Shown here: positions 4,478-57,300 of the stretch, piece after piece
Layout: each line of letters begins with the position of its first letter
How positions within the stretch are numbered: position 1 is the first letter of the stretch
Source of the DNA: Eledone cirrhosa
Lineage: Eukaryota
Length of the DNA stretch: 64,000 nucleotides
Direction: 5' to 3'
Assembly: GCA_964016885.1 (NCBI GenBank)
Contig: OZ024743.1
Span: forward strand, 12,028,001 to 12,092,000
The notes under the pieces: generated by a model
Seen by the model: only the letters and a program-made list of their open reading frames with translations
Databases searched by the model: none
Told to the model about the DNA's origin: nothing
Position numbers and translations under genes: made by a program

Positions 4478-4479
<2 letters not shown>

Positions 4480-15098: not shown

Positions 15099-16682
<1,584 letters not shown>

Positions 16683-26929: not shown

Positions 26930-26960
<31 letters not shown>

Positions 26961-26963
<3 letters not shown>

Positions 26964-29767
26964 TTATTAAAATAACAGATTAAAGTTTAAGCAAAGAATC
27001 GCTGCTTTCACCCTTAACGGGATCTTCTGAAACTAACAAAGTCAATCTGTAAACGCAGAAGTGGATATTTCAGAAAACGTTGCAACCGGAGGAAGACAGG
27101 AAGACGATACTTTGGTTCGTGGAAATGTTCGCTGGCAAAGAACGGGAAAAAACGAATAAGATACGTCATTAATAGGAGCGGTGAAAAACAATTACGCGCA
27201 AAGACAGAACCACGTTTATGGTATAAAAGAGGTCGTAGACTAATGTTCTCTTCGGTGGTTCATAGAGACTTTCTCTGGCAATGAACGAAAAAAACGAAGA
27301 AAATACGTCATATGTGGAGCGTGGAGAACAATATCACGCAAAACACTCACAGTGGTTAAGGATTTCGAAGTTGATGTCATCCTCAATGCCCGAAAGTCGG
27401 TGATTAATTTCGACGACTCTATTTGGATTAAAAAATCCAATAGTACCCCATTCGACGTGAGCATGGGCGCCAGTGATTCTGCGGAGGTTACTGATCTTAT
27501 CGGCCTTTTCCTTCTTTTCTCTATCAAGGACGAATTCCCCAACGCGGGCGGTGGTTTGTACCGTGACGATGGTGTTTTAACCATGACAAAGTGCGGACCT
27601 CGTGCTTGCGACAGGTTCAGAAAAGAACTCACAGACTTCTTTAAAGGCTTCAACCTCTCTATACAGGTTGAGGCCAATCTCTCGGTCGTTAATTACCTTG
27701 ACGTTACCCTCAATTTATTGAATGGATTGTATTATCCGTATAGAAAGCCGAATGATACGCTTAATTACATAAGTAAGCATTTCAACCATCCTGCCAGTAT
27801 AACCAAGAACCTGGTAAGAAACGTTTCGTTGAGGCTTTCACGTCTTTCCACCAACGAGCGTATTTTCAACGACCATTCCACTTATTACAATTAAGCTCTT
27901 ACTCGAAGTGGATTTGTCGATAAGGTAGCATATACAGAGTACGAAAATAGACATAGAAGAAATAGATCCCGTCGCATTTGTTGGTATAACCCACCATATA
28001 ATATGGAGGTGGCCACACCATTAGCTAAGATCTTTCTTTCCCTTATTACGAAGCATTTTCCCCCTACACATAAATATAGTAAAATTTTTAATAGAAATAC
28101 TATTAAAATTTCTTACTCAACGACTCCTAACCTTGCACATAACATCACAGCTTGAAATTTAGCTAAACTACCTAGCCGTAGGAACACGTGCAACTCTGTA
28201 GTTAGTACTAACTGTAATTGTAGGAATCGGGCTGATTGCCCCCTATCCGGGAAATGCCTCTGTAGTAACATTGTCTACAAATGTAAGGTTGTAACACCCA
28301 CGTCCCGTAGGGCCTACATAGGGTTAACCGCCAATATATTCAAGCAGCGTCTTTACACGCATACCTATTCTATTCGTTACCCTCTAAGAAGGAATATGAC
28401 GTCACTTTCAGCTTATATCTGGAGTCTAAAAGACAACCACACCCAATATAAGTTACACTGGGAGATCCTAGCTAGGGCTAGATCGTATAACGGAAATAAA
28501 AGACCATGTGACCTCTGCGCCGCTGAGGCCTTGGAAATACTCTACGCCACAGACCACATCTTAAACAAAAAATCTGAGGCAATTTCGGCTTGTAAACATA
28601 AATTGCACAAAACTTTCCTGTATTACAGCCCCACGTTATACCCTAATGGATAGTATGATCTATACGTGGATATTTTACGTCTTGATGTGGGAGCTAAGTA
28701 TATGTTTTATTTATACCATTACTTATTTGCATAGGTTAGTATATATTACCCGTATGTTTCGTGAAGGTACGTATACCTTCTCGTACGTATATTTGATTGT
28801 TTATGTTATGGCGTAAAATTTATTTATTTTTTTATTTTTTTTATTCTGGTACATATGGTTTGGCTATGTGTATACGGGAGTTTTGCGTCTGTGTGAGTAT
28901 GCTGGTTTGTACGTATGTAGGGTGTGTGTATATATTACTTCATGTTTTGGTTGACTTACGTCTCCGAATATTCGTGTATTTACATGTAGGTATGTGTGTG
29001 CGCTTGTTATATACGTATTTATTTATTTATATACGTTTATATATTTATTTATTTATTTATTTGTATACACGCATACACACACACACATATTTATATGTGC
29101 GTGGTTTTGTATACCTATGGTAAGTGTTTTGTGTATGCTTGTGTATGTACGTATTTGTTTGCGTGTATGTATTTAATTATTTCTATTACTTCTGTATTGT
29201 ATTTATTTACTTTGTCCTTAACTCTGTAGCGGAGATTCATTCGGTCTCCTAGTTAGAATTTTAGTCTACGATTTCTGCTATACCATTTACATGGTTTTGT
29301 CTTTGCGTGCTATTGTTCTCCGCGCTCCACATATGACGTATTTTCTTGGTTTTTTTCGTTCATTGCCAGAGAACGTCTCTATGAACCACCGAAGAGAACA
29401 TTAGTCTACGACCTCTTTTATACCATAAACGTGGTTCTGTCTTTGCGCGTAATTGTTTTTCACCGCTCCTATTAATGACGCATCTTATTCGTTTTTTCCC
29501 GTTCTTTGCCAGCGAACGTTTCCACGAACCAAAGTATCGTCTTCCTGTCTTCCTCCGTTTGCAACGTTTTTTGAAATATCCACTTCTGCGTTTACAGATT
29601 GACTTTGTTAGTTTCAGAAGATCCCGTTAATGGTGAAAGCAGCGATTCTCTGCTTAAACTTTAATCTGTTATTTTAATAAATATTTGCTCTACGGTTCTT
29701 ATATATTTGATATATATTTATCCTTATCGAGCCCTCTTTGGATTTTTGTCTTGAAATTTATTATTAT

Positions 29768-29770
<3 letters not shown>
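26961..29770 (+). mobile_element. Penelope-like element (Naiad-type RT plus GIY-YIG), 5'-truncated, with an inverted 5' pseudo-LTR
   Basis: FDVSMGASDSAEVTDLIG, GLYRDDG, NYLDVTLNL, YRKPN, HP; CNCR..DCPLSGKCL..NIVY...YIGLT..FKQR..H; CDLC. 26961-27342 is the reverse complement of ~29302-29683. In-frame stops are present. Confidence 0.92.
29610..29660 (+). ncRNA. Hammerhead ribozyme variant in the PLE pseudo-LTR (mirror copy on - at 26984-27034)
   Basis: AGTTT-CAGAAGA-TCCC GTTAA (T/G)GGT-GAA-AGCAG cgattct CTGCT-T-AAACT. Confidence 0.7.
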
Positions 29771-31429: not shown

Positions 31430-31860
31430 ATAAGTTGTAATATAATGAAACGAAATTTCATTTCTCACTCTTAGTATGGCACTTACTTAAATGTAAGTAT
31501 GTATGTATACGTACATACATATATGTATACAGACGTACAGTACCATGCATATATATATATATATATATATATACATACAGGTACACATATATATATGTAC
31601 GTATCAGTTTAGCGAACGTTTATTATAACGCCCGCTTTGTCCGTTTGTAAACAAGCAACAGTCTGATTTATGCCATACGGTGTTAAGGCAACCACGTCAC
31701 CTTTTTGTTCAACACTGACACAGGAACGATGTACTAGTTTCAAGCTTGTTAGCTATCATCAGCACCGTATACCCTTCTGCCAGATAGTTGAACGTTCGAA
31801 AGTATATACTTTCCTTATGAAAATTAACGGCTGAGCAGCCTAATTTGCATATCGAGTGGA
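31430..31860 (-). mobile_element. Dispersed, diverged monomer of the 500-bp HHR repeat (HHR at ~31725-31768)
   Basis: Collinear with the 42045-42530 unit; starts at the same ATAAGTTG position after (TA)n. Confidence 0.9.
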
Positions 31861-31929
31861 TTTTTTCAAGGTGATATAAAGTAAGAATATATTGTACTGT
31901 GTAATAATTGTTTCTAGGTTAGGCACAAT

Positions 31930-33700
31930 CAGAAAAGGTACAGATTAGGGGTTAGAAATTTAAAAAAAAAAAAAAAATAAAAGGAAAAGGAAGAAAGGGA
32001 AGTGATAAATAGGAGTGATATAGAATGAGTAACTAGTATTATATAATGTATAATAAATAACTTTGAAATAAGGTAGAAAGATGGGTATATTTTTAAAAAG
32101 TATATATATTTATATATATATGTGCCTTTGAGAAAAGGATTTTAAATTGATAAAGTATTAGATATTAGCTGTATACTTTATGGAATGTTCTGTGGAATTT
32201 ATGCAAGCAGAGAGAAAACAAGTCAGTGCGTCTATTTATTATAGAATCTAAATTAGATATAATGGTAAATTTTTCATTTAAACAGAGATTGCAAGTCTTG
32301 GATAGAGAACTGTTCAAGTATGAAGAAGCAGAAGAAACCTTTTTCTAAGAGATGTTATATTTAATATTTTTGTCTTTCAAGGACCATATGAGTTCTGAGA
32401 GTGCCGTGTTGGTTCTTTTAGGTTGGTATTTAAAAGACGAATGATGATTATAAAGACGAGCTTTAAAGGAGGTGGAAGTGGAGCCAAAATAGGTGAAGGA
32501 ATTGGTGTTAGTTATAACTTTACATTCGTAGATTAAGTTTTTTTCAAGACAATGGTTGTTGAGAGGACATTTATTTTTAACAGGGCAATTGCAATTGCGA
32601 TTAGAGAGATTATTAACGAGTGACCTAGTGTTATCTATAGAAGGAATTGGATTGGAGAAGTTATTTGCGATAGGAATAATAGTTTCTTGATTTAGAATGG
32701 GATTAAGAACATTTAGCGAAGTTGTGTTTGACGTTGTCTTTGGGCTTGCAGAAATTAGCCTAGAATTTACAATGACGTCGGGAGTACTATTACTATTATT
32801 ATGATATTCAGTGATGGAAGGAAGAGATTTAGTATTTTATTGTTGTGTTTAGAGATAATGTTGGAAATGTTGGAGGAGGTCGAATAGGAACATTTTATAG
32901 TGTGTTTGTTAAATATTTTACTATAGATATGTGAGGGAGGGAAGCATTTATTTAAGGCACTAAAGAATAATTTAGGAATATTATTATTAATAGAGATGGA
33001 GAAAGGAGCATTATACCAGATTATGTTTTTGTATCTAGGTCTTTTATTAAAGTTATTGGAATGATCATGATTAATTATTCTACTGTAAGATCTTCTAGAA
33101 TTTGTTTCTTTACTATATTTGATTTTATCAGGATAGCCGGCTTTAGAAAGCGCGTTATTATAGTAATTGGCGTTAGCATCAAAGATGTTTTTATTAGAAG
33201 ATAGGTTAGATATTCTTTTTCCAATATTACTAACTATAGCATTCTTAATATTAGTGGGGTGGTTAGATTTAAAATTAACATAATTTAGGTTCTCATTGTT
33301 TTTATGGTAAGGGTAATATAGGCCAGTGTCAAGATTAAGAGATACATCCAAGAAATTAGCTAGTTTGATGCTGTTATCAAATTCAATTTTTAACTTCAAT
33401 CCCTAACTTTTGGGCCCTTTTCAAATTCTCTTAATTCCCTCTAACCCATCCCTTTTACAACTCCTACAACTATTATAAAAGAGCCCCCTTAGAATATAGA
33501 CCCCAGATAAACAGGCTGAGCTGTTGATGTATACCACGATTTCAAACTGCTAATCTTGAGTGAAACGTTGATGAAAATAATGAACTTACAATTACCTGTT
33601 ATATGCCTTGAAAATTCCACCATATGGTCGGACGAAACGGCTGTCGCCAATAAACTTGTTATAATGTCATAAAAGTTCCTTTGTTCTTTTTCCTTAATAT
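31930..33700 (-). mobile_element. Second Penelope-like element (Naiad-type), 5'-truncated, with a probable inverted 5' tail segment at 33400-33700
   Basis: NFLDVSLNL..YYPYHK..YVNFKSNHP, IIWYNAPFS, KIFNKHTIKCSYS; minus-strand CNCPVKNKCPLNNHCL..LIY...YFGSTSTSFKARLYNH GIY-YIG-like region. Confidence 0.88.
33604..33649 (+). ncRNA. Degenerate HHR of the C3U/G8A core variant
   Basis: TGCC-TTGAAAA-tTCC ACCATATGGT c GGAc-GAAAC-GGCT-GTC-GCCA; stem I is imperfect. Confidence 0.5.
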
Positions 33701-34932: not shown

Positions 34933-35615
<683 letters not shown>

Positions 35616-37011: not shown

Positions 37012-40000
37012 TAATGGCTGCCCCCTCGTTATCGAGTATGGCCATTGCACGAGAGAAAGAAAAAAAAAAATAATAATAATAATAATAAATTAAAAAAAAA
37101 ATTAAAAAAAGAAATATATATATATACATATACATACACATATACACACACAAACACACACTCACACACACATATACACACACACATACATTAATAACAA
37201 TAATAATAATAATAATCATAACAACAATAATAATAACGACAACAACAATAATAATATACATATACATATATATATACACACACACGCACACACATAAGCA
37301 TATCTACACACACATACACGATAGCAACTAACAGCGCTGCGATCGAATGTGGCTTTTTAGCCCAGCCAATGATCTAAAATGTCTTGCATAGAGTCGGCAA
37401 CCAAAACATTCACTGGGAATAGTCGGCTGTGGTTGGAGTTCGTGTACTTTTGCATGTCGCTTGAGCCCTCCTGCTGATTTACATTCTCTACCACATGTTT
37501 GGCAAGCAAGATGAGTAGCATCTCCAACAGCAGCTTGGTAGTCAACCACTAGTCTTACTTTATGACTGCGAAGATGACTTTCGAATCCAGCTTTGCTTAG
37601 GCAGAGTCTCGCACATACGCTGCATGTCAGCACCATAGGAGGACCCTCGCCGTCTGGAAGTGCAACAGCAATGCCCTTCCTCACATCCCGCTTTACTTTC
37701 TCGTATGCGATTCGAGATGCCTCAAAGGCAACTTTTCCCTCATATACAGTCTTTCTCCATTTATTACGATCCGCAGCAATATTCTCCCATGTATCAGCAG
37801 AGATGTTAGCGTCTTTCAGAGAGGCTTTCAAGGAATCCTTATACCTCTTTTTTGGTTTATGTGGCGGTCGTTTTCCTTTAACCAACTCTCCATAAAAGAG
37901 TTGTTTTGGTATTCTAGAATCCTTCATCCTGGCAAGGTGACCACTCCAACGGAGTCGTTGCTTAAGCACAAGAGCTTCTATACTGTCACACATAGATCTT
38001 TCCAAAATCTCGACATCACTGATGTGGTCCCTCCAGTGAACGCCATGGATCCGTCTGAGACACATCTGATGGAAACGCTCCAATTGCTTAAGGTGGTGTC
38101 GATATGTGACCCAGGTCTCGCAGGCATAAAGAAGACAAGAGAGCACACATGCCCTGTACACCTTTACCTTTGTCCTCCTGCATATATCTCGCCGACCCCA
38201 GAGTCGCCTTTCTAGCTTTCCGAAAGCATCACTTGCTTTCCTAATCCTAAGTGAGATTTCACTGTCAAGGTTGCTGCATCGATTGACAGTGCTTCCCAGG
38301 TAGACAAATTGATCAACCACTCCAAGTCGTTTGCCATACACATAGATGTTTGGTTCAGTGTACTGCTTACCAGGGGCAGGTTGGTACATGACGACGGTTT
38401 TCTTGAGACTGACAGTCAGACCTAGGGCAGTGCAAGCGTCAGAAAATGTATTCAAAATGTGCTGCATATCACTCTCTGTGTGCGCTACAAGATCGCAATC
38501 ATCTGCATACAAGAGGTCTCTTATGATTGATGTAAATACTTTTGTCTTCGCAGCAAAGCGCCTGATGTTAAATATGCTGCCTGAGGTTCGATATCGGATG
38601 TAAACACCATGCTCGCAATTCCTGAATGCAATACAGAAAACCATTGCAAAGTATATGGCAAACAGGGTCGGTGCTGGAATATCCCCCTGTTTCACTCCAT
38701 TTTTTACTGAGATAGGCTCCGACATGTTACCCCCGACATTAACCCAAGTCTTCATGTCGTCATGGAAAGACCTAACTAAAGCAAGGAACTTATCAGGGCA
38801 ACCAAGTTTCTGGAGAACCTTCCATAATGCATCTCTGTTAACAGTATCGAAAGCTTTTGTCAGATCGACAAAAACCTGATACAGATCCAAGCCTTGTTCC
38901 ATGCACTTCTCCTGGAGCTGTCTAGCTGAGAAGATCATATCAGTAATGCCGCGTCCAGCACGAAAACCAGATTGACTTTCAGGAAGAACACAATCTGCAA
39001 TGTGTGTCAGCAGACGGTCCAGAAGCACCCTACATAAAACTTTCCCTACGACAGAAAGCAATGATATACCTCTGTAGTTCCCACAATCGTTCCTGTTACC
39101 CTTTCCCTTGTACAAGACCACCATTACTGCATCTCTCCAGTCCTCAGGTACGGATTCATTAGCCCATATCCTGCCAAACAAAGAGTGCAGATGTTGCAGG
39201 AGTCTCTCACCACCATATTGTAGAAGCTCAGCATGTATGCCATCCATACCTGGAGATCTTCCACTGTTCAGCTTCGAAATAGCCACTGCAACCTCCGTAA
39301 GCGTCGGAGGTTCTGCGAGAGCTACTTTCACAGGACTTTCTGGAATGAGATTGAGGAAATCTTCACTGACGACAGACGGCTGATTCAAAAGATCATCAAA
39401 GTGCTCTTGCCACCTTCGTAGAATTCCTTGTGAGTCACGAAGAAGTTCTTTGCCATCCTTGCTGCGAAGCGATGTCACCAGAGAAGAAAACGGTCCATAA
39501 ACCTCACGCAAGAGACTGTACAACAGCTTTGTGTTATTGGAATCAGACGCAGTTTGTATCTCACCAGCCTTCTCACTCCACCACTGATCCTTCATCTGAG
39601 AAAGAATCCGCCTAACACGTGATTTTACATCCCTGAGTTTCTCATGCAACGTATTCCTCTCCTGTGGTTTTGCCGTCAAGTAGCGTGACAGAGCACGCCT
39701 CTTATCAGCCAACAAGTCTTCTATATGTACATCATTCTCATCAAACCAGTCCTGATGTTTCCTCTGCGCCAATCCCAGAACACGCCTGCCTACATCATAA
39801 ACCGACTTTTTAAGGGTCGGCCAATCCTCACCAAGATCTGCAGCCTGCATCTCTTCTTCCAATGTCCTCTTCATATTTTTATCCTTAAGACGAGCAGCAT
39901 TCAATCTTTTGGGCAGGGCAACACCAGGAGCCCGGATTTTACGTTTAGTGATTAGCTTCACTTTTGCGCGTACCAGGCGGTGGTCCGTCCAGCACTCAGC

Positions 40001-40899
40001 TCCACGAAGAACACGAACACACTGCACATCCTGTCTGTCACGCATCCTGACTAGGACGTAGTCCAAAAGATGCCATTCCTTAGATGCAGGATGCATCCAT
40101 GTGGTCTTGAATTTGTTCTTTTGTTGGAACATGGTGTTGGTAACACACAGATCCAGCTCTTCACACATCTGCAGCAGGAGCATACCATTGCTGTTACACT
40201 TTCCCACCCCATGCCTTCCGATTACATTCCATGTGTTAAAATCCCTACCCACTCTAGCATTAAAGTCACCAAGCACGATGACTTTGTCTGCCTGAGGGAT
40301 ATTTCTTAAAACACCTTTCAAGGCATGGCAAAAGGACACCGTTTCCTCATCGACAGAACTCATAGTTGGAGCATACACACTCACCAGGGTAGCATATCTT
40401 CCCTTGTCCAGCGCAACTCTCATGGACGCTCACTAATCCCTACTGGGAATTCTTCTAATTTGTTCACAAGCACAGTCTTAACAGCAAATCCCACCCCAGC
40501 CTCTCTTCTGGTTCCTTCATCTCTTCCTTTCCAGAAGAATGTATATTCTCCACAAAATTCCGTAAGATGACCATCTCCAGCTAGCCTCGTCTCAGATAAA
40601 GCCACGATGTCAAGATCGTAACGTCGAAGTTCCTTTGCAACAAGAGCGGTCCTTCGTTCAGGACGCCCCAAGGAATCCCTGTCAAGCAGCGTCCGTACGT
40701 TCCAGCAGCCAAGACTAAATGCCTTGTTTGGCTCTATTACAATGGCACGATGACGAGCGGGCCCAGGCTGTGATAACCAGGGTCCCCTGCCCTTATTGCC
40801 AATGATCTGTTTTGTTCCAGAACCTAAATTGCCAATTATCTCTTTTATATTGTTCTGGAACATCATTGAATTGGAAAAAAAAAAAAAAAAAAAAAAAAA

Positions 40900-40950
<51 letters not shown>

Positions 40951-41255
40951 GTACACTATTAATAATTATTAATGCACTCGTGCAATGCCTGTGCGTGACG
41001 AATATTTTTAAAGTGAGGAAAGACTGTGTACTGAGCCAATCCCACCCTCTGAGCGACAGTAGCTATAACCCGAAAAGAAGAAAAGATCAACATCATCGGT
41101 AACTACTGAGCCGCAGGTTTTATGTCGGAGTTAACCCAGTTTCCTGAGATGCCTTCTCCTAGAAGAATGCCCTGACAAGGGCTAGGGGTTCTTCACTCCC
41201 AGTGGTTTAACTGCGCGATCGGGCATCCAGCCCGATTATTTCTATGTCCTCGCGC
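37012..41255 (-). mobile_element. Near-full-length RTE-clade (BovB-like) LINE
   Basis: 5'UTR motif CCTTGTCAGGGCA..CTAGGAGAAGG; APE-RT ORF; 3' hairpin ATGGCC..CTCG-ATAA-CGAG..GCCAT followed by a (TATG)n tail. Confidence 0.95.
37328..40866 (-). CDS. RTE LINE ORF: APE endonuclease, reverse transcriptase and C-terminal C2H2 zinc fingers; one frameshift near 40423
   Basis: WNVRTL, ALSETR, VYAPT, LGDFNARVG, LDYVL, TDH; NYRGISLL, FVDLTKAFD, GVKQGD, LLYADDC, YLGS; CxxC-x12-HxxxH fingers. Confidence 0.93.
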
Positions 41256-41397: not shown

Positions 41398-41459
41398 TAC
41401 CGTCATTACGGATAAAAGATTACAAAATTATGTCAACTGTTGACTTTCAAGAGTTTGTA

Positions 41460-41655
41460 TAGTTGAAGCCGATCGTACTACAGTCCAGTATTATTATAAT
41501 TGCTTTACAGCATAGAGTCACGGCCCTCCACGCTCTGAGCTCAAATCCCGCCGAGGTCAACCTTGCCTTTCATCCCCACGGCGTCAACAAAAGAGAGGTA
41601 CCAGTGATGCGCTGGGCCAGTCGCTGGATCCGTGCCAAAAGCAGAAAAATTATTA
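41460..41655 (+). mobile_element. Degenerate family A SINE; further remnants at ~17940-18060, ~48225-48340 and ~59150-59285
   Basis: GAGCTCAAATCCCGCCGAGGTCAACCTTGCCTTTCATCC motif. Confidence 0.65.
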
Positions 41656-42160
41656 TTAAACTTTTTTTCTTAAGGCCCGGTCGCGGGTGATGGTGATGGC
41701 GGCGGCGGTAGTGGTGGTGGTGGCAATTGATGTTGTTGTTGTGTTGTGTGCGTGTGTGTTTTGTTATTTTGAGTTGTTTTTTTTTTCTTTTTTTTCCCTT
41801 CCCTTTCTTTTTTTTATCTTTTGATGCCGCTGTTGTTGTTGTTGTTGTAAATGTTCATTTCAGTTCATTCTGAAGCTGTTGTTGCTGTAAACATTAGTGC
41901 CGGTGTTGTTGTTGTAGATGTTGGGGTTGAAATCTGGTCGTTTGCCTGAGTGATGTATATACACACATACACATACATATATATGCAAAAGTTTTATTTA
42001 AAATTGTTGGGTTACAACAAGTAAATATTTTATAACATATATATATAAGTTGAAAAAAATGAAAACGAAATTTCATTTCTCACTCTTAGTATGGCACTTA
42101 CTTAAATGTAAGTATGTATGTATACGTACATACATATATGTATACAGACGTACAGTAGCA

Positions 42161-42234
<74 letters not shown>

Positions 42235-42393
42235 TGCACACAGGTACACATACATATATGCACGCATCAGTTTAGCCGACGTTTATTATAACGCAGCTTT
42301 GTTCGTTTGTTTGTCAACAAACAGAACAGCCTGAATTTATGCCATACGGTGTTAAGGCAACCACGTCACCTTTTTGTTCAACACTGACACAGG

Positions 42394-42672
42394 AACGATG
42401 TACTAGTTTCAAGCTTGTTAGCTATCATCAGCACCGTTTACCCATCTGCCAGATAGTTGAACGTTCGAAAGTATATACTTTCCTTATGAAAATTAACGGC
42501 TGAGCAGCCTAATTTGCATATTGAGTGAGTTAAATCGGTCAGGCATACCGAAAACGATAAGTTGAAAAAAATGAAAACGAAATTTCATTTCTCACTCTTA
42601 GTATGGCACTTACTTAAATGTAAGTATGTATGTATACGTACATACATAAATGTATACAGACGTACAGTAGCA

Positions 42673-42733
<61 letters not shown>

Positions 42734-43162
42734 GTACACATACATATATGCACGGATCAGTTTAGCCGACGTTTATTATAACGCAGCTTTGTTCGTTTGT
42801 TTGTCAACAAACAGAACAGCCTGAATTTATGCCATACGGTGTTAAGGCAACCACGTCACCTTTTTGTTCAACACTGACACAGGAACGATGTACTAGTTTC
42901 AAGCTTGTTAGCTATCATCAGCACCGTTTACCCATCTGCCAGATAGTTGAACGTTCGAAAGTATATACTTTCCTTATGAAAATTAACGGCTGAGCAGCCT
43001 AATTTGCATATTGAGTGAGTTAAATCGGTCAGGCATACCGAAAACGATAAGTTGAAAAAAATGAAAACGAAATTTCATTTCTCACTCTTAGTATGGCACT
43101 TACTTAAATGTAAGTATGTATGTATACGTACATACATATATGTATACAGACGTAGAGTAGCA

Positions 43163-43236
<74 letters not shown>

Positions 43237-43674
43237 TGCACACAGGTACACATACATATATGCACGGATCAGTTTAGCCGACGTTTATTATAACGCAGCT
43301 TTGTTCGTTTGTTTGTCAACAAACAGAACAGCCTGAATTTATGCCATACGGTGTTAAGGCAACCACGTCACCTTTTTGTTCAACACTGACACAGGAACGA
43401 TGTACTAGTTTCAAGCTTGTTAGCTATCATCAGCACCGTTTACCCATCTGCCAGATAGTTGAACGTTCGAAAGTATATACTTTCCTTATGAAAATTAACG
43501 GCTGAGCAGCCTAATTTGCATATTGAGTGAGTTAAATCGGTCAGGCATACCGAAAACGATAAGTTGAAAAAAATGAAAACGAAATTTCATTTCTCACTCT
43601 TAGTATGGCACTTACTTAAATGTAAGTATGTATGTATACGTACATACATAAATGTATACAGACGTACAGTAGCA

Positions 43675-43735
<61 letters not shown>

Positions 43736-44164
43736 GTACACATACATATATGCACGCATCAGTTTAGCCGACGTTTATTATAACGCAGCTTTGTTCGTTT
43801 GTTTGTCAACAAACAGAACAGCCTGAATTTATGCCATACGGTGTTAAGGCAACCACGTCACCTTTTTGTTCAACACTGACACAGGAACGATGTACTAGTT
43901 TCAAGCTTGTTAGCTATCATCAGCACCGTTTACCCATCTGCCAGATAGTTGAACGTTCGAAAGTATATACTTTCCTTATGAAAATTAACGGCTGAGCAGC
44001 CTAATTTGCATATTGAGTGAGTTAAATCGGTCAGGCATACCGAAAACGATAAGTTGAAAAAAATGAAAACGAAATTTCATTTCTCACTCTTAGTATGGCA
44101 CTTACTTAAATGTAAGTATGTATGTATACGTACATACATATATGTATACAGACGTAGAGTAGCA

Positions 44165-44240
<76 letters not shown>

Positions 44241-44678
44241 TGCACACAGGTACACATACATATATGCACGGATCAGTTTAGCCGACGTTTATTATAACGC
44301 AGCTTTGTTCGTTTGTTTGTCAACAAACAGAACAGCCTGAATTTATGCCATACGGTGTTAAGGCAACCACGTCACCTTTTTGTTCAACACTGACACAGGA
44401 ACGATGTACTAGTTTCAAGCTTGTTAGCTATCATCAGCACCGTTTACCCATCTGCCAGATAGTTGAACGTTCGAAAGTATATACTTTCCTTATGAAAATT
44501 AACGGCTGAGCAGCCTAATTTGCATATTGAGTGAGTTAAATCGGTCAGGCATACCGAAAACGATAAGTTGAAAAAAATGAAAACGAAATTTCATTTCTCA
44601 CTCTTAGTATGGCACTTACTTAAATGTAAGTATGTATGTATACGTACATACATAAATGTATACAGACGTACAGTAGCA

Positions 44679-44739
<61 letters not shown>

Positions 44740-45168
44740 GTACACATACATATATGCACGCATCAGTTTAGCCGACGTTTATTATAACGCAGCTTTGTTC
44801 GTTTGTTTGTCAACAAACAGAACAGCCTGAATTTATGCCATACGGTGTTAAGGCAACCACGTCACCTTTTTGTTCAACACTGACACAGGAACGATGTACT
44901 AGTTTCAAGCTTGTTAGCTATCATCAGCACCGTTTACCCATCTGCCAGATAGTTGAACGTTCGAAAGTATATACTTTCCTTATGAAAATTAACGGCTGAG
45001 CAGCCTAATTTGCATATTGAGTGAGTTAAATCGGTCAGGCATACCGAAAACGATAAGTTGAAAAAAATGAAAACGAAATTTCATTTCTCACTCTTAGTAT
45101 GGCACTTACTTAAATGTAAGTATGTATGTATACGTACATACATATATGTATACAGACGTAGAGTAGCA

Positions 45169-45232
<64 letters not shown>

Positions 45233-45670
45233 TGCACACAGGTACACATACATATATGCACGGATCAGTTTAGCCGACGTTTATTATAACGCAGCTTTGT
45301 TCGTTTGTTTGTCAACAAACAGAACAGCCTGAATTTATGCCATACGGTGTTAAGGCAACCACGTCACCTTTTTGTTCAACACTGACACAGGAACGATGTA
45401 CTAGTTTCAAGCTTGTTAGCTATCATCAGCACCGTTTACCCATCTGCCAGATAGTTGAACGTTCGAAAGTATATACTTTCCTTATGAAAATTAACGGCTG
45501 AGCAGCCTAATTTGCATATTGAGTGAGTTAAATCGGTCAGGCATACCGAAAACGATAAGTTGAAAAAAATGAAAACGAAATTTCATTTCTCACTCTTAGT
45601 ATGGCACTTACTTAAATGTAAGTATGTATGTATACGTACATACATAAATGTATACAGACGTACAGTAGCA

Positions 45671-45735
<65 letters not shown>

Positions 45736-45938
45736 GCACACAGGTACACATACATATATGCACGCATCAGTTTAGCCGACGTTTATTATAACGCAGCTTT
45801 GTTCGTTTGTTTGTCAACAAACAGAACAACATGAATTTATGCCATACGGTGTTAAGGCAACCACGTCACCTTTTTGTTCAACACTGACACAGGAACGATG
45901 TACTAGTTTCAAGCTTGTTAGCTATCATCAGCACCGTT
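42394..45938 (-). ncRNA. Eight minimal type I hammerhead ribozymes (42394-42438, 42884-42928, 43396-43440, 43886-43930, 44400-44444, 44890-44934, 45392-45436, 45894-45938)
   Basis: AACGGTG-CTGATGA-tAGCT AACA AGCTt-GAAAC-TA-GTA-CATCGTT; 7-bp stem I, intact core, palindromic stem III ACTAGT, GUA cleavage triplet. Confidence 0.92.
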
Positions 45939-45987
45939 TACCCATCTGCCAGATAGTTGAACGTATATGTACGTGTACCTGTGTGCA

Positions 45988-46031
<44 letters not shown>

Positions 46032-46265
46032 TGCTACTGTACGTCTGTATACATATATGTATGTACGTATACATACATACTTACATTTAAGTAAGTGCCA
46101 TACTAAGAGTGAGAAATGAAATTTCGTTTTCATTTTTTTCAACTTATCGTTTTCGGTATGCCTGACCGATTTAACTCACTCAATATGCAAATTAGGCTGC
46201 TCAGCCGTTAATTTTCATAAGGAAAGTATATACTTTCGAACGTTCAACTATCTGGCAGATGGGTA

Positions 46266-46460
46266 AACGGTGCTGATGATAGCTAACAAGCTTGAAACTA
46301 GTACATCGTTCCTGTGTCAGTGTTGAACAAAAAGGTGACGTGGTTGCCTTAACACCGTATGGCATAAATTCAGGCTGTTCTGTTTGTTGACAAACAAACG
46401 AACAAAGCTGCGTTATAATAAACGTCGGCTAAACTGATGCGTGCATATATGTATGTGTAC

Positions 46461-46521
<61 letters not shown>

Positions 46522-46800
46522 TGCTACTGTACGTCTGTATACATTTATGTATGTACGTATACATACATACTTACATTTAAGTAAGTGCCATACTAAGAGT
46601 GAGAAATGAAATTTCGTTTTCATTTTTTTCAACTTATCGTTTTCGGTATGCCTGACCGATTTAACTCACTCAATATGCAAATTAGGCTGCTCAGCCGTTA
46701 ATTTTCATAAGGAAAGTATATACTTTCGAACGTTCAACTATCTGGCAGATGGGTAAACGGTGCTGATGATAGCTAACAAGCTTGAAACTAGTACATCGTT
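46266..46800 (+). ncRNA. Two minimal HHRs in the inverted part of the array (46266-46310 and 46756-46800)
   Basis: Same sequence read on +; CTGATGA at 46273-46279, predicted cleavage after 46303. Confidence 0.92.
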
Positions 46801-46959
46801 CCTGTGTCAGTGTTGAACAAAAAGGTGACGTGGTTGCCTTAACACCGTATGGCATAAATTCAGGCTGTTCTGTTTGTTGACAAACAAACGAACAAAGCTG
46901 CGTTATAATAAACGTCGGCTAAACTGATGCGTGCATATATGTATGTGTACCTGTGTGCA

Positions 46960-47007
<48 letters not shown>

Positions 47008-49560
47008 TGCTACTGTACGTCTGTATACATATATGTATGTACGTATACATACATACTTACATATATATATATATACACATTCAACAGAGAGTAGAGAGTT
47101 TGACAACAGGTCGATGACTTTAGTCTAGATAGGGTAATGACATATGATGGTGGGGAGATAGTGTAGGAGTTATTGTGGTGGCGGGGGGCAGTGCGATGTA
47201 TCTAGTTTATTTGACCGTTTTCTTCTCTTTGCAAAATTTGAATTTTAGCCATGTTATATTGAGATGTAAGTAAATGTAAAATGTAAAATATAAATAAGGA
47301 TTGCTCTGCTAAAATATACTAAAATATTTGTGTAACTTCCACAAACTGTCGTGACATTCCCGAGTCCAGTGACCAACAAATTGTTGTATTTTGATGTTTC
47401 AGAATACAAAAATTAATTAAAAACTTACCCCACGAAAAGACAGCGTGTGTTGTCCTATCTATAAGCCTCCTCATACATACATACATACATACATACATAC
47501 ATACATACATACATACATACATACATACATACATACATACATGCGAAGAAGAAATTATGCAGTTTGACGTAGTTTATCGTATGCACACATACAAACACAC
47601 ATACACACACATACACACACACGCACATACACATAGATACATGCGAACCCCACATAAAAGCAAATAATAAGGAAATGGGTACACAAAACAAATGTATATT
47701 TATATTATAAATACAAATATTATAATTTAAATTTATATTTAATTTCCGGTTCTATGAATATATTATCAATCATATAAATAGTATTCTTCTGAAAATATAA
47801 AACATTTTTGCTTAAATGTTCACAATAATGATGACATTAATCATTCATATATTCGTTTATTCGTTCGCTCACTCGTAAATCCTTTTTTTTAAAAATTCAA
47901 GTAAGAAACAGCTATAGTGCAATATATGAGATGCATGTGGATATTGATTGTAAAGGAAGGTATAAACGGAAGACTAGTATATGGCTAGCAAAAGAAATGT
48001 TTGGTAAACCTAACTTTCAATAGAATCTTTGATAAACCTAACTTTCAATAGAATCTTTGAGCATAACGAATTCTTGCATGTGACACTTTATTCGAAGCCT
48101 AGAAACACTCATAATTCATATTGCTTGCTTCCTTTGTAGCCGATAATAGAACCTGGGCTAACGACCAGGGCTGCTAAGAAATAGCAATAAAATCTCCATC
48201 AAATAGTGATATAATGTGGCAAATTGGCACAGTTCTTAGAGTATAGGAACAAATTACCTAATGATATTTGTTTCAGGCTTCTATACGCCGAGTTCAAATC
48301 ATGTCAATTTTCCATTTCGTCATTTCTCGGTCGATAAAATGTATTTTTATAGGTAGCAGGATGCAACATACGCATGTGGGAGTTGTTGCTACTGGGGTGT
48401 ATAAAACATGTTAGCAGGCGACAAATATAACGAAGAGAAGGAAACTGTAACTAAATGAATCGTGACGGATGAGAGCTACCTTTCTAATAATTTAATAGGG
48501 ATTCCAATTAAGACTAATCACTATAGTCAGATCTAGTTTGAAGTATATAAGGCTACCCTTTCTTGCGTCGCTGCTAATAATAATATTCAAATCATGTACT
48601 TTAAACATGTATATCAGATCTTTTCTAACGTCAACTATGCAATAGTTGGAGAATTTTATAGGTAACTGCTAAGATTTGTGAGCTGGTGATTTTCTTGATG
48701 GTGTCTCATATAAATAGTTCGATTAGTTGAGACTCATAGAAACATTGGATAGTGGGGCACATTCGTGTTTATCCCAGTTGGAATCGTCTTAATTCATTAG
48801 GCTGTAAACCCCTCCTCTGCATCAAACATGTAATGAGTTTGCTAGTCTCAAGACGTTATCTGTTAACACAGACAGTTATTGCCATAACGTGTTGTCCTCT
48901 TCCATGTGACTCTTCTTAACAAATCAAAATCGATCTAACCGGTGTTTCCCACCGATCCACAGGATGTCCCTTCATCAACTGAACCTTTGTCGCTTGAACG
49001 AGCAAACCACCATATCTTTGGTAACTGCGAGAAAAAAGTTTCCAAATAGTTTCGTATTTATTAATATTCACTACACATTACTTGTTTCACCTCTAAACTA
49101 CCAAACGTAGGAAGAATATATTTTGTTACGAAGAAAGTAAACAAACTATTTATTGGCGCAATCAAATTTACATAAAAGTTCAACGTCATCGACCGGAATA
49201 TAAATACAACTACCAATGCAACTAGATTAAGAATGTGGATAGGGAAATCATATATAATAGCTTACATCTCAACTGTCAAATGTAAAAAAAGATATACGTC
49301 CTCATTAACTTTGTCAATCTTGTACCATTACATAAATAATTTTATACCAGTAACAGTTTGCTTACATTTTTCATTACAAGATATATTCTTCTTAACAGTA
49401 ACGGTTCAGAGGTGAAGTAAGGGAGCACTGATGGATATAAATAATAAGAAACTAGACTAACACTATCTCACTAATCTACCGAAATTTCTATGATTTGTAC
49501 ACATAGTAGATATACGTTTATCAAATATATCATATATGATTTTATATATACATAATTATT

Positions 49561-49628
<68 letters not shown>

Positions 49629-49814
49629 AAACAATCTACTTTTAGAATCGATGAGCGATAAGAAGTTTGAGAATTTGAATGTGCCCAACTAATAAGACTA
49701 TTTTTCATAGTCAAACAACGTTGATGCTTCTGTGTGTCTGTATTTCTGTGTATACGTTGTGTGTGTGTGTGTACGGATATGTGTGCATGTCTATGAGTTA
49801 ATATTTCCACTTAC

Positions 49815-50103
49815 CAGGTACTCCGGGTAGTCCGGGTACTCCAGCTGTACCAGGTTCCCCTTTCTCACCATCAAGACCAGCCGGTCCTCGCGGTCCCCTT
49901 ATCGGCAGTTTTATAGGTACAGTCGTTTCTCCGCGGCAGGACAGTTCCAGATCACACATACCCTCGTCTATGTCACCATCACGAGGTTTGCGTAACGCGC
50001 TTGCCCCTCTGCTGCGTGCACGTGGTTCCCCTCGTCTAGCAACAGCAGTGTATACCACAAAGAGAGCCGTTAAAACGATGATGAGCTGTTGTTTATACCT
50101 CAT
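49815..50103 (-). CDS. First coding exon of a secreted short-collagen protein (C1q/CTRP-like candidate)
   Basis: ACCATG start, hydrophobic signal peptide, CDLELSC pair, nine Gly-X-Y triplets; upstream acceptor TTTCAG (AG at 50131-50132) and phase-1 donor G|GTAAGT at 49814. The C1q domain itself is not seen in the window. Confidence 0.8.
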
Positions 50104-52338: not shown

Positions 52339-52507
52339 ACACTTGATATAGACGTGATTTACTTTGCTCCGGATTTTTACGGATTTTTGTCAAAAAAACT
52401 GTGAGTTTATTGATCAATTTAATAACATTGTTTGGTTTAGCCCCTTGCCTTGGCCGTCAGACGTTAAGTCAACAAATTTTCATCTAAATACTGTAGACTT
52501 GGTGGCA

Positions 52508-54273
52508 ATGGATGCCATTTCCACCTCGCACACTGTCGTGAGTGCCACGCCCACTAAGAAAAGTGGTGGAGGGAAGGTAGGAGTGCAAAGCTTGCAGCCA
52601 TCCCCCCTCGCATCATCGAAAAACGTGGAAAATATCGAAACCGCGAAAGCAAATCCGGCAAATAATAGCAGCACCAACAACAAGAACAATGACAACAACA
52701 CCACAACCAACAACTGCAACAATAGCAACACCAATATTACCAACAGTGACAGTAACACGAAAGACAACAACACCAAAACAACATTTGCACAGACCGTAAA
52801 AAAAAACGAACTATACACGCCAATAGACATAACAAATGCTAAACAACTATTACAAGACGCAAAACAATTTGTGACTTTTGGTGAAAACGGTGCTTTTAGC
52901 ATTAATTCTCCACAGGAATTACGTAGAGAGGCTGTCCTGAAAACTGTGGTTTTCAGGACAATATCGAACGTAACAAGAAAACCAGCGCAATTATCACAAA
53001 ATGAGATTGAGCTGGTTCTAAAAGACGCAATGAAGGACTTAACCTTCATACAAAAAGGTAAACTGTTTGGTAGCATTTCGGTGCTGATGAACAACCAGTC
53101 AACAGCTCAAAAGTACTCGATAGCACCCATTGTGTCCCCCCACTTCACCTTTTACCCCACATACAGGGGAAAAAGGACACAAAGAATAAAAATAATGAGT
53201 ATCACACCAAATGTAAACATTTGGTGGATACTATGTGGAATAATAAACTTGGACGAAGACAATATAATTTCAATAGGAAAGTGCTCCGGAGGTGTATTTG
53301 GTGGGACCACAGTAGAAGTTCTGGTGCAAATGAGCCCAGAACGAATAGCGAATATCCCACAACGCGTGCCTCTGGACAGGCTAACTTATATAAACATTTC
53401 AGTGGAGGGAAGGCGGCCGTCATGTTTCCACTGCTTAAGCAGGGGTCACCTGAGGGCTGCCTGTCCTCAATTAACGAGTCAAAATAAAAAGGCTCTTCTG
53501 CCAACCCCGAACACAACAACACAACCACCACCACAACAACAACAACACGGAAAAATAACAACACAAAACACTGTTCCACCCAACCCCTCCCCACCTAAAA
53601 CAAATACAAAAGCAACCACAGCAAAACCCCAAAATATACCCCTCCCCAACAACACGGAAGAGGACTCCGTATCAACGTCACCCAGTGACGACGAGGGAGA
53701 ACCCTTTCAACAGGTGAAAAGGAAAAAAAAAGGCACCACATTAACAAAAATGCCACAAACACACAGCCACCAGCACAAACAGAACAAACATCACAAATAA
53801 AAAAACCCACCCCTCCCCAAAACATAACACGTACTATAAAACGCAAACACCCGCAAGAACAACAAACAAAAACAAACACAACACAACAAAAACTCTATAC
53901 ATACATTAACAAGAACAATAAAACGTTGATGAAAGCGATAGAAAATAACCCTTCGGTGGAAACCGAAGGGATCACTTTCACCTACGCAGCGAACAAACCG
54001 CACCTAATGATGATTAGGGTCCCAACGGAAACCTATGTAACTTTGAAAAACAACCATCCAATGCATGTGGGGACCAACTGCACCAAACCACATAACAGCG
54101 TCCTATTGAGATGTTTCCCCACCCCCACACCAGACACCCACACCCCACCAAACACCCTAATCCCACCACACACTGATGTCCTCACCCCACTACAAACCAC
54201 CACCCCACCAAACAACCCTTCCAACACCCCCATGGAAATTGTGCAGCCTGGCCCCCAGGAAACGAAGAGGTAA
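52508..54273 (+). CDS. Tx1/L1 ORF1 (gag-like, zinc knuckle CFHCLSRGHLRAAC); one frameshift in the A-run at ~53723-53731
   Basis: TFAQTVK, Asn/Thr-rich and Pro-rich linkers, VEGRRPSCFHC; the second frame is open from ~53700 to TAA 54273. Confidence 0.8.
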
Positions 54274-54315
54274 GTAATTTCCTTTCCTCTTCCTTTTTAC
54301 CTCTTCAGCACCAAC

Positions 54316-57300
54316 ATGGCCAATATAAGAGTTGGATGTGTGAATGCACGCGGCTTGGGGATGTCCTGGAAACAGGGCAAACTCTTAAATGACCTCAGGT
54401 CGCACAGAGTGGATGTAATGGTTATTTGCGAGTCCAGGATCAGCAGCGAGCGCCAACTGGCCCCCATCTTCGACGACTTTGAGATCTACGCATCTCTCTG
54501 TCAGCCGAGGGGTGGGGGGTGGGGTTGTCGTTCTGCTGCGAAAATACCTGGGTCTCGCCACACAGAAGGTACACCTGGACCCGGAGGGTCGACTGGTGGT
54601 TTTAGACGTCGGCAGTGGTGAAGGTGGAGCTTTCAGGCTGGTGGCAGCGTATGCCCCATCGGGGACACCGCGACCAGACTTCTTCCGACGCCTGGAGAAT
54701 TTCCTGGGAACGTCTCGCTCCTTGCTTTTAGTGGGGGACTGGAATGGTATCCTGGATGCACGTTGGGACTATGTAGGGGCATGTCCCGATAGAGGGGGTG
54801 TAACAGCCTCAAACGATTAATCGGCCGATTTGATCTGGCCGATAGATATCGACTGGATTTTCCGACTGTGCCACGGTGGACGTGGAGTAATCGCAGTGGA
54901 ACATCCAGGTCGTACCTAGATAGGTTCCTAGTTAGAAATAAGGATAGGGACATATTAAGCTGTCCACGAATGTTCATGGTTGACTATTCGGATCACAAGT
55001 TGTTGACCGGAGTGGTCAACCTTGATAGAACTCATAGACAGGGACCCGGTTACTGGAAGCTAAACTTGTCTTTACCGACAATCAAAGCTTACAGTAAGCG
55101 GATTAGCACACTAGTTAAGCAGCGTTTGACGGGGGCAATTGTCAACAGCAGGTGGTGGGGCTCTCTCAAGAGAGAAATTAGAATAGAATCGATAGGTTTT
55201 AGTCGGGAATTAGCATCAGATAGGAATAGAACTGAAAGGGAATTAACAAATAGAGTAGAAGAGGCGATTAGGAGTGGCAACGTGGCCGGCGTGCTGGCGT
55301 CAAGAACGGCCCTAGACCAGTTCTTTGATGCGAAGCACGAGGGCTGCGTTGTCAGGAGTAAAATACGTGCTCTGGGTAACGAGGGAGCCAAAGCTGTTAG
55401 CTGGGCCCGAGTGACAGAGGCAAAAAGTGGAAACAAGTCCACGATTCGGTCTTTGAAGGACCAGGATGGACGCGTGATCCTTGAACCTGAGCGGATGAGC
55501 GCGGCCTTTCAACGGCGCTTTGCACGACTGTTCGGGAGGGGCGGCGGGCCGGGTGGGGCCATGGATTTCGGTCCATACCTCGACGGTCTGGCGCGGCTCT
55601 CGGACGGGGAGGCGAAGTCCTGCGAGAGGCCGATTTCAGCCTCTGAAATAGGGAAAGCGCTGAGCCAATGCGGCAAACGCAAATCTCCGGGTCTCGATGG
55701 TCTACCATACGAACTTTATGTAGCGATGCCGGGCTTGTTCTCCGGTCTCCTCGAGGCGGGTCTACTGCAACTGGCAACAGAACGGGAGAATTCCCAGTTC
55801 TGTGACCAAGGGCGTAGTCACGCTGGTGAGGAAGGACGAGAACAAGGGGGATGACATAGATAACTTCAGGCCCATAACTCTGCTAAACACAGAGTTAAAG
55901 ATTTTGGCCAAGGTGTTAGCGAAGAGGTTGGCGCTTGTCGTCGGGAACCTGGTGGGAGAAGCGCAGACATACGCAATCCCGTCCAGGTCCATACACGACA
56001 ACCTCCACCTCATGCGATACATCGTAGAGAGGGTAGGGAACGAACCCGGCTTTGGTGGGGCCCTGATCAACTTGGATCAATCTAAAGCGTTCGATAGGGT
56101 TGACCATCGGTACCTGGATGCGGTGCTCGCGGCGGCAGGCTTCCGACCCGTTTTCAGGGGCTGGATTGCTGCAATGCACAGCAGCAACACCTGCTCGAGG
56201 GTCAAGGTGAACGGCTACCTCTCAGAGCCGTTCCAAATCACGCGATCCATTCGACAGGGATGCCCTCTCTCCTCCCTCCTGTATGTGCTGGCTCTCGAGC
56301 CACTACTGAGGAAGCTGGAGCTGTTGCAGGGCATCCCCTTGGAACCGGGATTGCGGAAAGCGGTGTCGGCCTACGCCGATGACGTGACAGTAATGGTGTC
56401 GTGCGCCTCGGAAATCGGGCAGATCGGCACCTTACTGGAGGAATATGAAAGGTTCACAGGAGCCAAGCTGAACCGGGACAAGTCCGTCGGTTTGCAACTC
56501 GGGACGTGGAGGGGGCAAAACGATGCCCTCCGACGGCATCGTCGGACGCTGGACGGAGGGACCGGTGAAGCTGCTCGGGGTCTGGTTCGGACCGGACCTC
56601 CAGGTGGAGAAAAACTGGGACGAGGTAACGGGCAAGGTGTTTGCACTCGCCCAGAAGTGGGCCGAGTGCAAACTATCCCTGAAAGGTCGAACGGAGGTGG
56701 CGAACGCTTATATAGCGTCCGTCATCTACTACCGCTTGACCGTCGTGCCTTGCCCAGAGAAAACACTCGCCAAAATGGAGCGCGCGCTCTTCCGATTTCT
56801 TTGGAAGAAGCGGGCTCCTTTGGTGAGAAGATCCATCTGCTGTCAACACCCTTCGAACGGAGGGCTGGGGATGCCGTGGCTGACGATGCGTAGACACGCA
56901 TTAAGGCTACGGCCCCTCCAGGTATTCCTGACCGGTCAGCCGGTGTGGGCCCTGTTTGTGAGGCGAGCCTTTCCCAGACTCGTCTCACTCACCGAGCTGC
57001 AATCCTGGATCAAGCAAAGACCGAGAAAAATGGGCGACTGGCACATTGAATGTGCCCAGGCGCTCACGGCCCTCTGGCAAGCGGATCCGGCAATCAGTGG
57101 AGACTCAACCTCAACATTCTATAGAGGGTTGGTGCGCAGTAAGTGCGACGACGCTCTCGGACAGGCTCTGGGCATGGAGGAAGACGAGCTGCCCAGTCTG
57201 TTCGGTAGGACGTTTGGCCCGGGACCGATGGACAACTTCCAAAAGTCCCTGGCTTGGCAATGTTACCGAGGAGCTCTACCCGTTCGGGACAAGCTCTACA

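What the first reader, a model, noticed from the sequence alone, without database searches (positions are those of the whole stretch)
45940..47060. Array has PLE-style architecture: fixed 3' end at (TA)n and a 5' inverted segment
Seen: orientation flips at 45964/45965 (…AGTTGAACGT|ATATGTACGTGTACC…), and both outer ends abut TA-repeat sequence. The dispersed copy at 31430 begins at the same ATAAGTTG position after TA repeats as the array does. The autonomous PLE at 26961-29770 has the same layout of an inverted 5' copy of its tail. Inference: the whole 5 kb is one PLE-mediated insertion of concatemeric cDNA.
Basis: partly seen in the sequence, partly recalled or inferred. Interest (0 to 1): 0.7.

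Follow-up and report, generated by a model that had tools for sequence, protein, structure and literature searches.

The report
Two-armed ribozyme repeat, Penelope footprint
This 5-kb back-to-back array is one of over a thousand insertions of a 490-base non-coding repeat with a predicted self-cutting RNA motif; it sits in a TA tract that is empty in sister copies of the flanking DNA, and sampled two-armed copies pair one long and one short fixed end, so a Penelope-type transposon enzyme likely wrote it in from both sides of a DNA cut.

Summary
The layout is real. A 490-bp unit with a type I hammerhead core (10,384 exact core copies) forms two head-to-head arms: 7.8 units ending at a fixed 'long' end, 2.2 units ending about 60 nt earlier at a fixed 'short' end. 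Both flanks belong to one host repeat; 6 of 7 paralogues are empty across a TA tract, which excludes a fold-back artefact. In 130 loci, 42 of 73 head-to-head pairs are long+short, none long+long or short+short; 31 have an unclear end. Two coding Hydra-type Penelope families follow the same rule, as do 5 of 7 cross-family composites. Best reading: a non-LTR retrozyme likely inserted by two-sided priming by a Penelope enzyme. Corrections: the nearby PLE copy is broken, not autonomous; the 31430 copy is the end of a three-family chimera; a 52-bp piece of another element separates the left end from the host; about 2 kb of the left arm may be later expansion. The junction was not confirmed in reads. 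The scan reported this layout before for other families in this genome.

The parts
42045..45964 (-). Long-end arm: 7.8 head-to-tail copies of the 490-bp unit; 3' end CAACTTAT at unit position 489; 5'-truncated at unit position 92
45965..47062 (+). Short-end (inverted) arm: 2.2 units, starts at unit 298, ends CTTACAT at unit about 428, about 60 nt before the long end
45964..45965 (.). Head-to-head junction; asymmetric (unit 92 vs 298), 1-nt overlap, no mirror
46259..46321 (+). Type I hammerhead motif of one unit (core 46273-46304; second plus-strand core 46763-46794; eight minus-strand cores 42400-45931); short palindromic stem III; activity untested
   Evidence: Rfam HH9 18.5 bits, E 0.04, below the gathering score of 52; cores located; conserved core and a stem-I G-U/U-G swap in the older copy at 35.3 kb
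46149..46638 (+). Reference monomer, 490 bp, 34% GC, longest ORF 64 codons, internal (AT)25 tract
41401..41984 (.). Left half of the host repeat, ending in (AT)4
   Evidence: 89-98% match to 7 paralogues, contiguous with the right half in 6 of 7
41985..42036 (-). 52-bp 3' end of another TA-targeting two-armed element (called V here); likely a separate insertion in the same tract
   Evidence: 87-88% to inserts in L127 and L130; L127 insert printed
42037..42044 (.). (AT)4 between V and the array
47061..47542 (.). (AT)7 and the right half of the host repeat
31430..33697 (.). Three-family composite: unit copy with long end (31430-31858, minus), joined without spacer to an internal piece of coding PLE-B (31858-33396, minus), then head-to-head to the short end of family X (33397-33697, plus), then (TA)n
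26960..29770 (+). Broken copy of coding Hydra-type PLE-A: inverted short-end arm 26960-27342; 5'-truncated body 27343-29770 with two stops; long end at 29770 plus (TA)25
35057..35574 (-). Older, about 78-88% copies of the same unit

Best explanation
The array is a young member of a high-copy, non-coding, hammerhead-bearing repeat family (a non-LTR retrozyme) lying in a TA tract of an older host repeat, and it was likely inserted in one event by a Hydra-type Penelope enzyme that primed DNA synthesis from both sides of the cut. Shown: empty paralogous sites, head-to-head arms, two fixed TA-abutting 3' ends about 60 nt apart, and one end of each kind per classifiable insertion. Inferred steps: (1) the GIY-YIG endonuclease cuts both strands within (TA)n; (2) one freed end primes reverse transcription at the long site and the other at the short site, usually on the same RNA; (3) each cDNA runs a random length, through several units if the RNA is circular or multimeric, sometimes jumping to another PLE-system RNA; (4) the two truncated 5' ends are joined head to head. 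Here the template likely had two unit variants in alternation (a dimer circle or dimer-period multimer). About 2 kb of the left arm may have been added later by dimer-step duplication.
For: Empty site in 6 of 7 paralogues. 73 head-to-head vs 2 tail-to-tail pairs in 130 loci; 35 long+short by the strict classifier, 0 long+long, 0 short+short, p 3e-11, plus 7 pairs called short. Genome-wide 910 long-end+TA and 1,632 short-end+TA pattern matches, controls 0. Same rule in coding PLE-A (8 of 9 inverted pairs) and PLE-B (6 of 6). Both carry DKT, CxCX5C and CxxC..E..N..CxH motifs that PMC8557442 section 11 gives for the TA-targeting Hydra clade. Arms of one locus are closer to each other than to other loci (median rank 0.115, 42 pairs); 7 of 41 pairs share a variant seen in no other locus, against 77 of 8,447 control pairs. 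6 of 33 pairs cannot be made by one cDNA folding back. Spacer-free chimeras with coding PLE-B at 31858, L083 and L086. The short PLE-B end predicted for L086 was then found. PMC11167929 shows a PLE protein cutting and extending both strands from two internal RNA sites that bound the tail.
Against: No coding PLE with sequence similarity to the unit was found among the two families tested, so the partner rests on 3 chimeras. 31 of 73 pairs have an end that is unclassified, cut off, or lies in the unit's own TA tract. L038 is a long+long composite and L045 is unclear. The microhomology test gave no clear signal: 15 of 24 junctions had at least 1 nt, against 63% of simulated blunt joins. In vitro the two start sites were used alike on both strands, which does not by itself predict strict pairing. 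No donor carrying the 397T variant was found among 55 loci. Arm similarity could also come from gene conversion. 27 of 33 pairs, this locus included, are also compatible with fold-back.
Confidence: 0.75

Rival explanations
1. One priming event plus fold-back: a single cDNA (or a self-primed RNA, as proposed in PMC3846280) snaps back and copies itself, and the second end is set by an endonuclease cut at the tail.
For: Explains one-long-one-short pairing and arm likeness. This locus and 26 other pairs of 33 are length-compatible. Two of 53 junctions are symmetric palindromes. PMC3846280 passages argue for self-priming from palindromic junctions.
Against: In 6 of 33 pairs each arm holds sequence that the other lacks (8.6 expected if lengths are independent, 0 under pure fold-back). 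In L077, L099, L083 and the 31430 composite the two arms end in different families. 51 of 53 junctions are asymmetric.
Confidence: 0.12
2. L1-style twin priming on one long linear transcript: the second primer anneals upstream and stops the first cDNA.
For: Gives head-to-head arms from one RNA; the A/B phase at this locus also fits this reading. The mechanism is recalled from L1 work, not from a call.
Against: It predicts that long arms stop just downstream of the short site. Only 6 of 44 do and 5' ends are uniform over the unit (KS p 0.70).
Confidence: 0.05
3. Two unrelated insertions side by side, or a DNA-level inversion inside a satellite, with no single retrotransposition event.
For: This TA tract was hit at least twice (V fragment; another insert in L127). 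Local dimer-step changes are visible in the left arm.
Against: Adjacent independent insertions leave a TA spacer (as between V and the array, and in the tail-to-tail pair of L097) and would not give 73:2 orientation or 42:0:0 end pairing. An inversion would not create a second fixed TA-abutting end.
Confidence: 0.05
4. Assembly artefact from chimeric fold-back reads.
For: The junction was not seen in contigs of runs X1, X3, X4 and was unresolved in raw reads of X14.
Against: The mirror length at the junction is 1 nt. The right arm exits into the correct continuation of the left flank. 52 other junctions in the first set lie at differing breakpoints. Strand-switching reads within the unit occur in raw reads of another sample (three joints; 12, 12 and 53 reads; 5, 2 and 1 starts).
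Confidence: 0.03

Closest known systems
Metazoan non-LTR retrozymes (PMC7229834, passages; bioRxiv 10.64898/2026.07.22.740005, parts 1-3 of 5)
   Same: Non-coding tandem unit with one type I hammerhead per unit, GC under 45%, monomers to multimers, coexisting with PLEs. PLE mobilisation through a circular RNA template is proposed there.
   Different: Unit of 490 bp against about 170-400 nt in PMC7229834 (within the 51-972 bp range of the preprint). The word 'inverted' does not occur in PMC7229834, and two fixed ends or TA targets did not appear in the parts read. The preprint finds pLTR homology in Xenopus; none was found here to the two PLE families tested. RNA, circles and cleavage are not shown here.
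EN+ Penelope-like elements, Hydra clade (PMC8557442, passages and section 11; PMC3846280, passages)
   Same: 5' truncation, partial tandems, an inverted 5'-truncated copy, a tail on only one end, a hammerhead, (TA)n targets.
   Different: The array encodes no protein. Tails here are about 60 nt (unit), 86 (PLE-A), about 95 (PLE-B) against 30-40 bp in print. Strict one-long-one-short pairing, also across families, is not stated in the passages read.
PAc Poseidon element in vitro (PMC11167929, parts 1-2 of 4)
   Same: Both target strands cut and extended; two internal start sites bounding the tail; AT-rich target; hammerhead cleavage not needed. Here too the ends lie far from the predicted cleavage site, and the short end falls in a predicted hairpin loop.
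   Different: A different clade and an autonomous RNA; no difference of start site between strands was seen in vitro, whereas the genomic pairs here are one of each.
Non-autonomous Chlamys elements such as MRC1 (PMC8557442, passage)
   Same: Non-coding PLE dependants in multicopy head-to-tail insertions.
   Different: Those generally share 3' sequence with their autonomous family, and most Chlamys lack hammerheads.

Membership tests
Non-LTR retrozyme | Type I hammerhead in every tandem unit | tested here: met
   10 intact cores in the array; Rfam HH9 E 0.04 but below the gathering score; U-U at the base of stem II and a short stem III
Non-LTR retrozyme | Non-coding tandem unit of a few hundred bp, low GC, dispersed | tested here: met
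   490 bp, 34% GC, longest ORF 64 codons; 10,384 cores genome-wide
Non-LTR retrozyme | Self-cleavage of the RNA | not testable with these tools
   needs in vitro transcription; 8 of 9 predicted elements did not cleave in the preprint
Non-LTR retrozyme | Expressed as linear and circular RNA | not testable with these tools
   no RNA run was available to lay
PLE-type insertion | Inverted 5'-truncated copy, head to head | tested here: met
   73 head-to-head vs 2 tail-to-tail pairs in 130 loci
PLE-type insertion | Tail present on one end only | tested here: met
   42 long+short, 0 long+long, 0 short+short; 31 unclear; tail about 60 nt rather than 30-40
PLE-type insertion | Insertion into (TA)n with an empty pre-insertion site | tested here: met
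   6 of 7 paralogues empty; 108 of 115 long or short ends TA-flanked
PLE-type insertion | Target-site duplication or junction microhomology | tested here: inconclusive
   net gain of TA units cannot be told from slippage; microhomology not above control
Autonomous PLE (the array itself) | ORF with RT and GIY-YIG | tested here: not met
   no ORF in the unit
Hydra clade (PLE-A and PLE-B families) | C-terminal EN, DKT, CxCX5C linker, CxxC and CxH around E and N | tested here: met
   against PMC8557442 section 11; RWK reads RWI or RWR; no tree was built; Pfam gave only a weak GIY-YIG hit, E 0.023
Autonomous copy at 26960-29770 | Intact full-length ORF | tested here: not met
   5'-truncated, two stops; other PLE-A copies have 713-aa open frames, PLE-B copies 808 aa
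pLTR derivative of a coding PLE | Sequence similarity to the UTR of a coding family | tested here: inconclusive
   none to PLE-A or PLE-B beyond TA repeats; other PLE families in the genome were not screened

The most novel reading that the evidence does not exclude
Penelope enzymes insert as an asymmetric pair: one active site always starts at the long site and the other at the short site, each on a target strand, and the two RNAs need not be of the same family. Retrozyme circles ride this pair, and the in-phase A/B alternation in both arms here records a two-unit RNA circle copied round and round from both sides of the break. This would explain the PLE tail, the inverted 5' copy and retrozyme spread by one mechanism.
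Probability: 0.35. Interest if true: 0.78.

Novelty: new variant of a known kind. Interest (0 to 1): 0.52.

Why it matters
How Penelope elements make their inverted, tailed insertions is an open question (PMC8557442), and the link between animal retrozymes and PLE enzymes has been proposed from co-occurrence and pLTR similarity (PMC7229834; bioRxiv 2026.07.22.740005). This family supplies many dated footprints with two mapped start sites, an empty target, and chimeras that point to a candidate enzyme with open 808-aa frames. That makes two-sided priming directly testable in the published in vitro assay. The locus itself is one ordinary member of a large parasitic family, and the scan has noted the layout in sister families.

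Tried and rejected
Rfam scan of 26-47.5 kb returned only microsatellite-driven miRNA hits among the 150 of 175 rows shown; the narrow scan found HH9 weakly. Pfam did not recognise the PLE-A pieces or the 808-aa PLE-B protein. Sequencing runs: no RNA holder listed. Laying contigs on the right flank could not show an empty allele because the flank is itself a high-copy repeat and the TA-rich boundary was skipped. Laying on the junction was inconclusive: no contig cover beyond 45967 in X1, X3, X4; in X14 depth of 13-37 beyond the junction is largely explained by ordinary unit reads, and at most 5 reads carry the locus letter at 45972. The microhomology test was noisy; a p of 0.0008 appears only after dropping 8 negative values and was not used. 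The donor search for the 397T variant found only other subfamilies and one uninformative short piece. The first self-BLAST was swamped by microsatellites and redone masked. A sequence look-up in earlier findings returned nothing. The idea that the unit is the pLTR of the PLE piece at 31858 was rejected: that family's 3' UTR continues differently in 19 of 19 other copies. Supplements of the cited papers were not read and may list this family or its layout.

Full report
Observation. The finding covers the right arm of a 5-kb array of a 490-bp unit. Mapping gives a left arm at 42045-45964 (7.8 units) and a right arm at 45965-47062 (2.2 units) in opposite orientation. The junction reads as quoted and has a mirror of only 1 nt. 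Both outer ends touch TA, and the 31430 copy starts at the same ATAAGTTG. The PLE near 27-29.8 kb has an inverted 379-bp copy of its 3' region.

The unit. Each unit holds a CUGAUGA...GAAA core with stems I and II and a short palindromic stem III. Rfam matches HH9 at E 0.04, below the family threshold. An older copy keeps stem I through a G-U to U-G swap. The unit is 34% GC with no ORF over 64 codons. The 35-nt core occurs 10,384 times in the 3.0-Gb genome, control 0. The hammerhead sets the sense strand: both arms point outward, so both outer ends are 3' ends and the junction joins two 5' ends.

Family sample. I fetched 24 best-hit loci, 50 stretches covering the clusters among the first 100 listed core matches on contig C1 (two further clusters were already in the best-hit set), and 55 stretches for the 61 outside matches to a rare variant (six near-duplicate matches were left out). 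In the first 75 loci, window included, 143 arms were found: 68 end at unit 478-489 (long), 47 at about 425-435 (short), 14 in the unit's own TA tract, 14 elsewhere, of which 5 proved to be short variants. TA follows 63 of 68 long and 45 of 47 short ends. Genome-wide patterns give 910 long-end and 1,632 short-end matches followed by TA (the long pattern misses this locus's own 7-T variant). Over 130 loci there are 73 head-to-head and 2 tail-to-tail pairs. A strict classifier gives 35 long+short, 0 long+long and 0 short+short; 7 more pairs were called long+short, making 42. The other 31 have an end that is cut off, unclassified, or in the inner TA tract, which may reflect later TA-to-TA deletion (inference). 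L048 contributes three near-copies. 5' truncation points are uniform over the unit.

Empty site. The right flank is itself a high-copy repeat. In 6 of 7 paralogues the sequence left of 41984 runs straight into the sequence right of 47062 across a TA tract of about seven units (longer in one). The seventh holds a different two-armed element at the same tract. The 52 bp at 41985-42036 match the end of that element, so the tract was likely hit twice here. Read data did not confirm the junction.

One template, two primers. Arms of one locus resemble each other more than other loci (42 pairs tested, 11 skipped; median rank 0.115), and 7 of 41 share a variant seen in no other locus, against 0.9% of control pairs. 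Conversion could add to this. In 6 of 33 long+short pairs each arm holds sequence that the other lacks, which a single folded-back cDNA cannot give; 8.6 are expected if arm lengths are independent. Only 6 of 44 long arms stop just past the short site, against L1-style collision (the L1 model is recalled).

Is it all cDNA? Units alternate A (397A, mixed tract) and B (397T, 50-nt pure tract in four of five) in both arms, in phase from the 3' ends. The 397T pattern has 66 matches in the genome, and only this locus has it at 1-kb spacing. No donor of this subfamily was found. A two-unit template explains the phase. But 381C sits in left copies 2, 4, 6 and 291C in 1, 2, 4, 6, in neither the outermost A unit nor the right arm, and in no other of 75 loci. 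Copying one circle cannot give that; later dimer-step duplication or conversion can, as can consensus error, which I could not test. About 3 kb is the minimum original insertion; I put the whole-5-kb claim near even odds. Period-2 patterns also appear in L050, L073, L121 and L218, while other arrays are uniform with private variants in every unit (L073, L091, L092).

The enzyme. The 27-kb PLE (PLE-A) is 5'-truncated with two stops, but its family has 713-aa frames. PLE-B has 808-aa frames. Both show the motifs given for the TA-targeting Hydra clade. Both follow the end rule: 8 of 9 inverted PLE-A pairs in 24 loci chosen by their long end, and 6 of 6 PLE-B pairs. Neither resembles the unit beyond TA repeats. 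The 31430 copy is not a solo copy: it is joined without spacer to an internal piece of PLE-B, which meets the short end of a third family head to head, with 9 nt shared at that join. Of 7 cross-family composites, 5 have one long and one short end (31430, L077, L083, L086, L099), L038 has two long ends, and L045 is unclear. For L086 I predicted a short PLE-B end and then found it. Spacer-free joins to coding sequence involve PLE-B three times and PLE-A never in the first set, a weak pointer to PLE-B.

What is known. The inverted copy, one-sided tail and TA bias are described for PLEs (PMC8557442, passages and section 11; PMC3846280, passages). Cutting and extension of both strands from two internal sites is shown in vitro (PMC11167929, parts 1-2 of 4). 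Retrozyme mobilisation by PLEs on circular templates is proposed (PMC7229834, passages; bioRxiv 10.64898/2026.07.22.740005, parts 1-3 of 5). My seven searches listed no paper that, by title or abstract, reports two-armed retrozyme insertions or strict end pairing; supplements were not read. Earlier notes of this scan report the layout for 310-, 316-, 318-, 541- and 592-bp families in this genome; these are unchecked AI notes, and I had reached the reading before seeing them.

Verdict. A real, young retrozyme-like insertion with a Penelope footprint. What this locus adds is the empty site, the in-phase two-unit pattern in both arms, and the end rule holding across families. Novelty: new variant of a known kind; interest 0.52.

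Noticed in passing
window 49813-50103 (-): First coding exon of a collagen-like gene (hydrophobic N-terminus, Gly-X-Y start, Pfam Collagen E 4.4e-05). The array may lie in the intron that follows; later exons were not sought.
   Followed up: partly
window 37328-40965 (-): LINE with a 1,033-aa open frame (RT, endonuclease remnant, C-terminal C2H2 fingers) and an upstream 181-aa frame that looks like the endonuclease start.
   Followed up: no
window 52358-57755 (+): Second LINE-like element: a 480-aa first ORF and frameshifted endonuclease and RT pieces.
   Followed up: no
window 4478-4668, 10992-11180, 17186-17350; 26441-26870; 15198-16681; 23251-23644: Further inverted-repeat elements, several between (TA)n tracts. 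The one at 4478 has an 81-nt tail on one side only. These look like other non-coding PLE dependants.
   Followed up: partly
L127 1014-1497: A different two-armed element sits at the same TA tract of the host repeat, suggesting a hot spot; its tail shares a TATACTCCA...GAGTGCTT pattern with the PLE-B tail.
   Followed up: partly
L033, L040, L042, L073, L081, L103: Unit ends lie within 50 bp of PLE-A sequence across short TA tracts: these families stack into each other's TA tails.
   Followed up: no
window 46545-46645: The region of the two ends folds into three hairpins (z -4.3); the short end lies in a loop and the long end just past a stem. The PLE-A tail shows no such stability (z -0.76).
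   Followed up: partly
L235, L236: Full-length PLE-B copies have a direct 5' copy of the 3' end including the tail just before the ORF, and an Asn-rich linker before the endonuclease; Asn-rich inserts are described in PMC3846280.
   Followed up: no
L134 about 500-1500: Family X has about 1 kb of very T-rich sequence upstream of its 3' end, with an endonuclease match about 1.6 kb upstream in L135.
   Followed up: no
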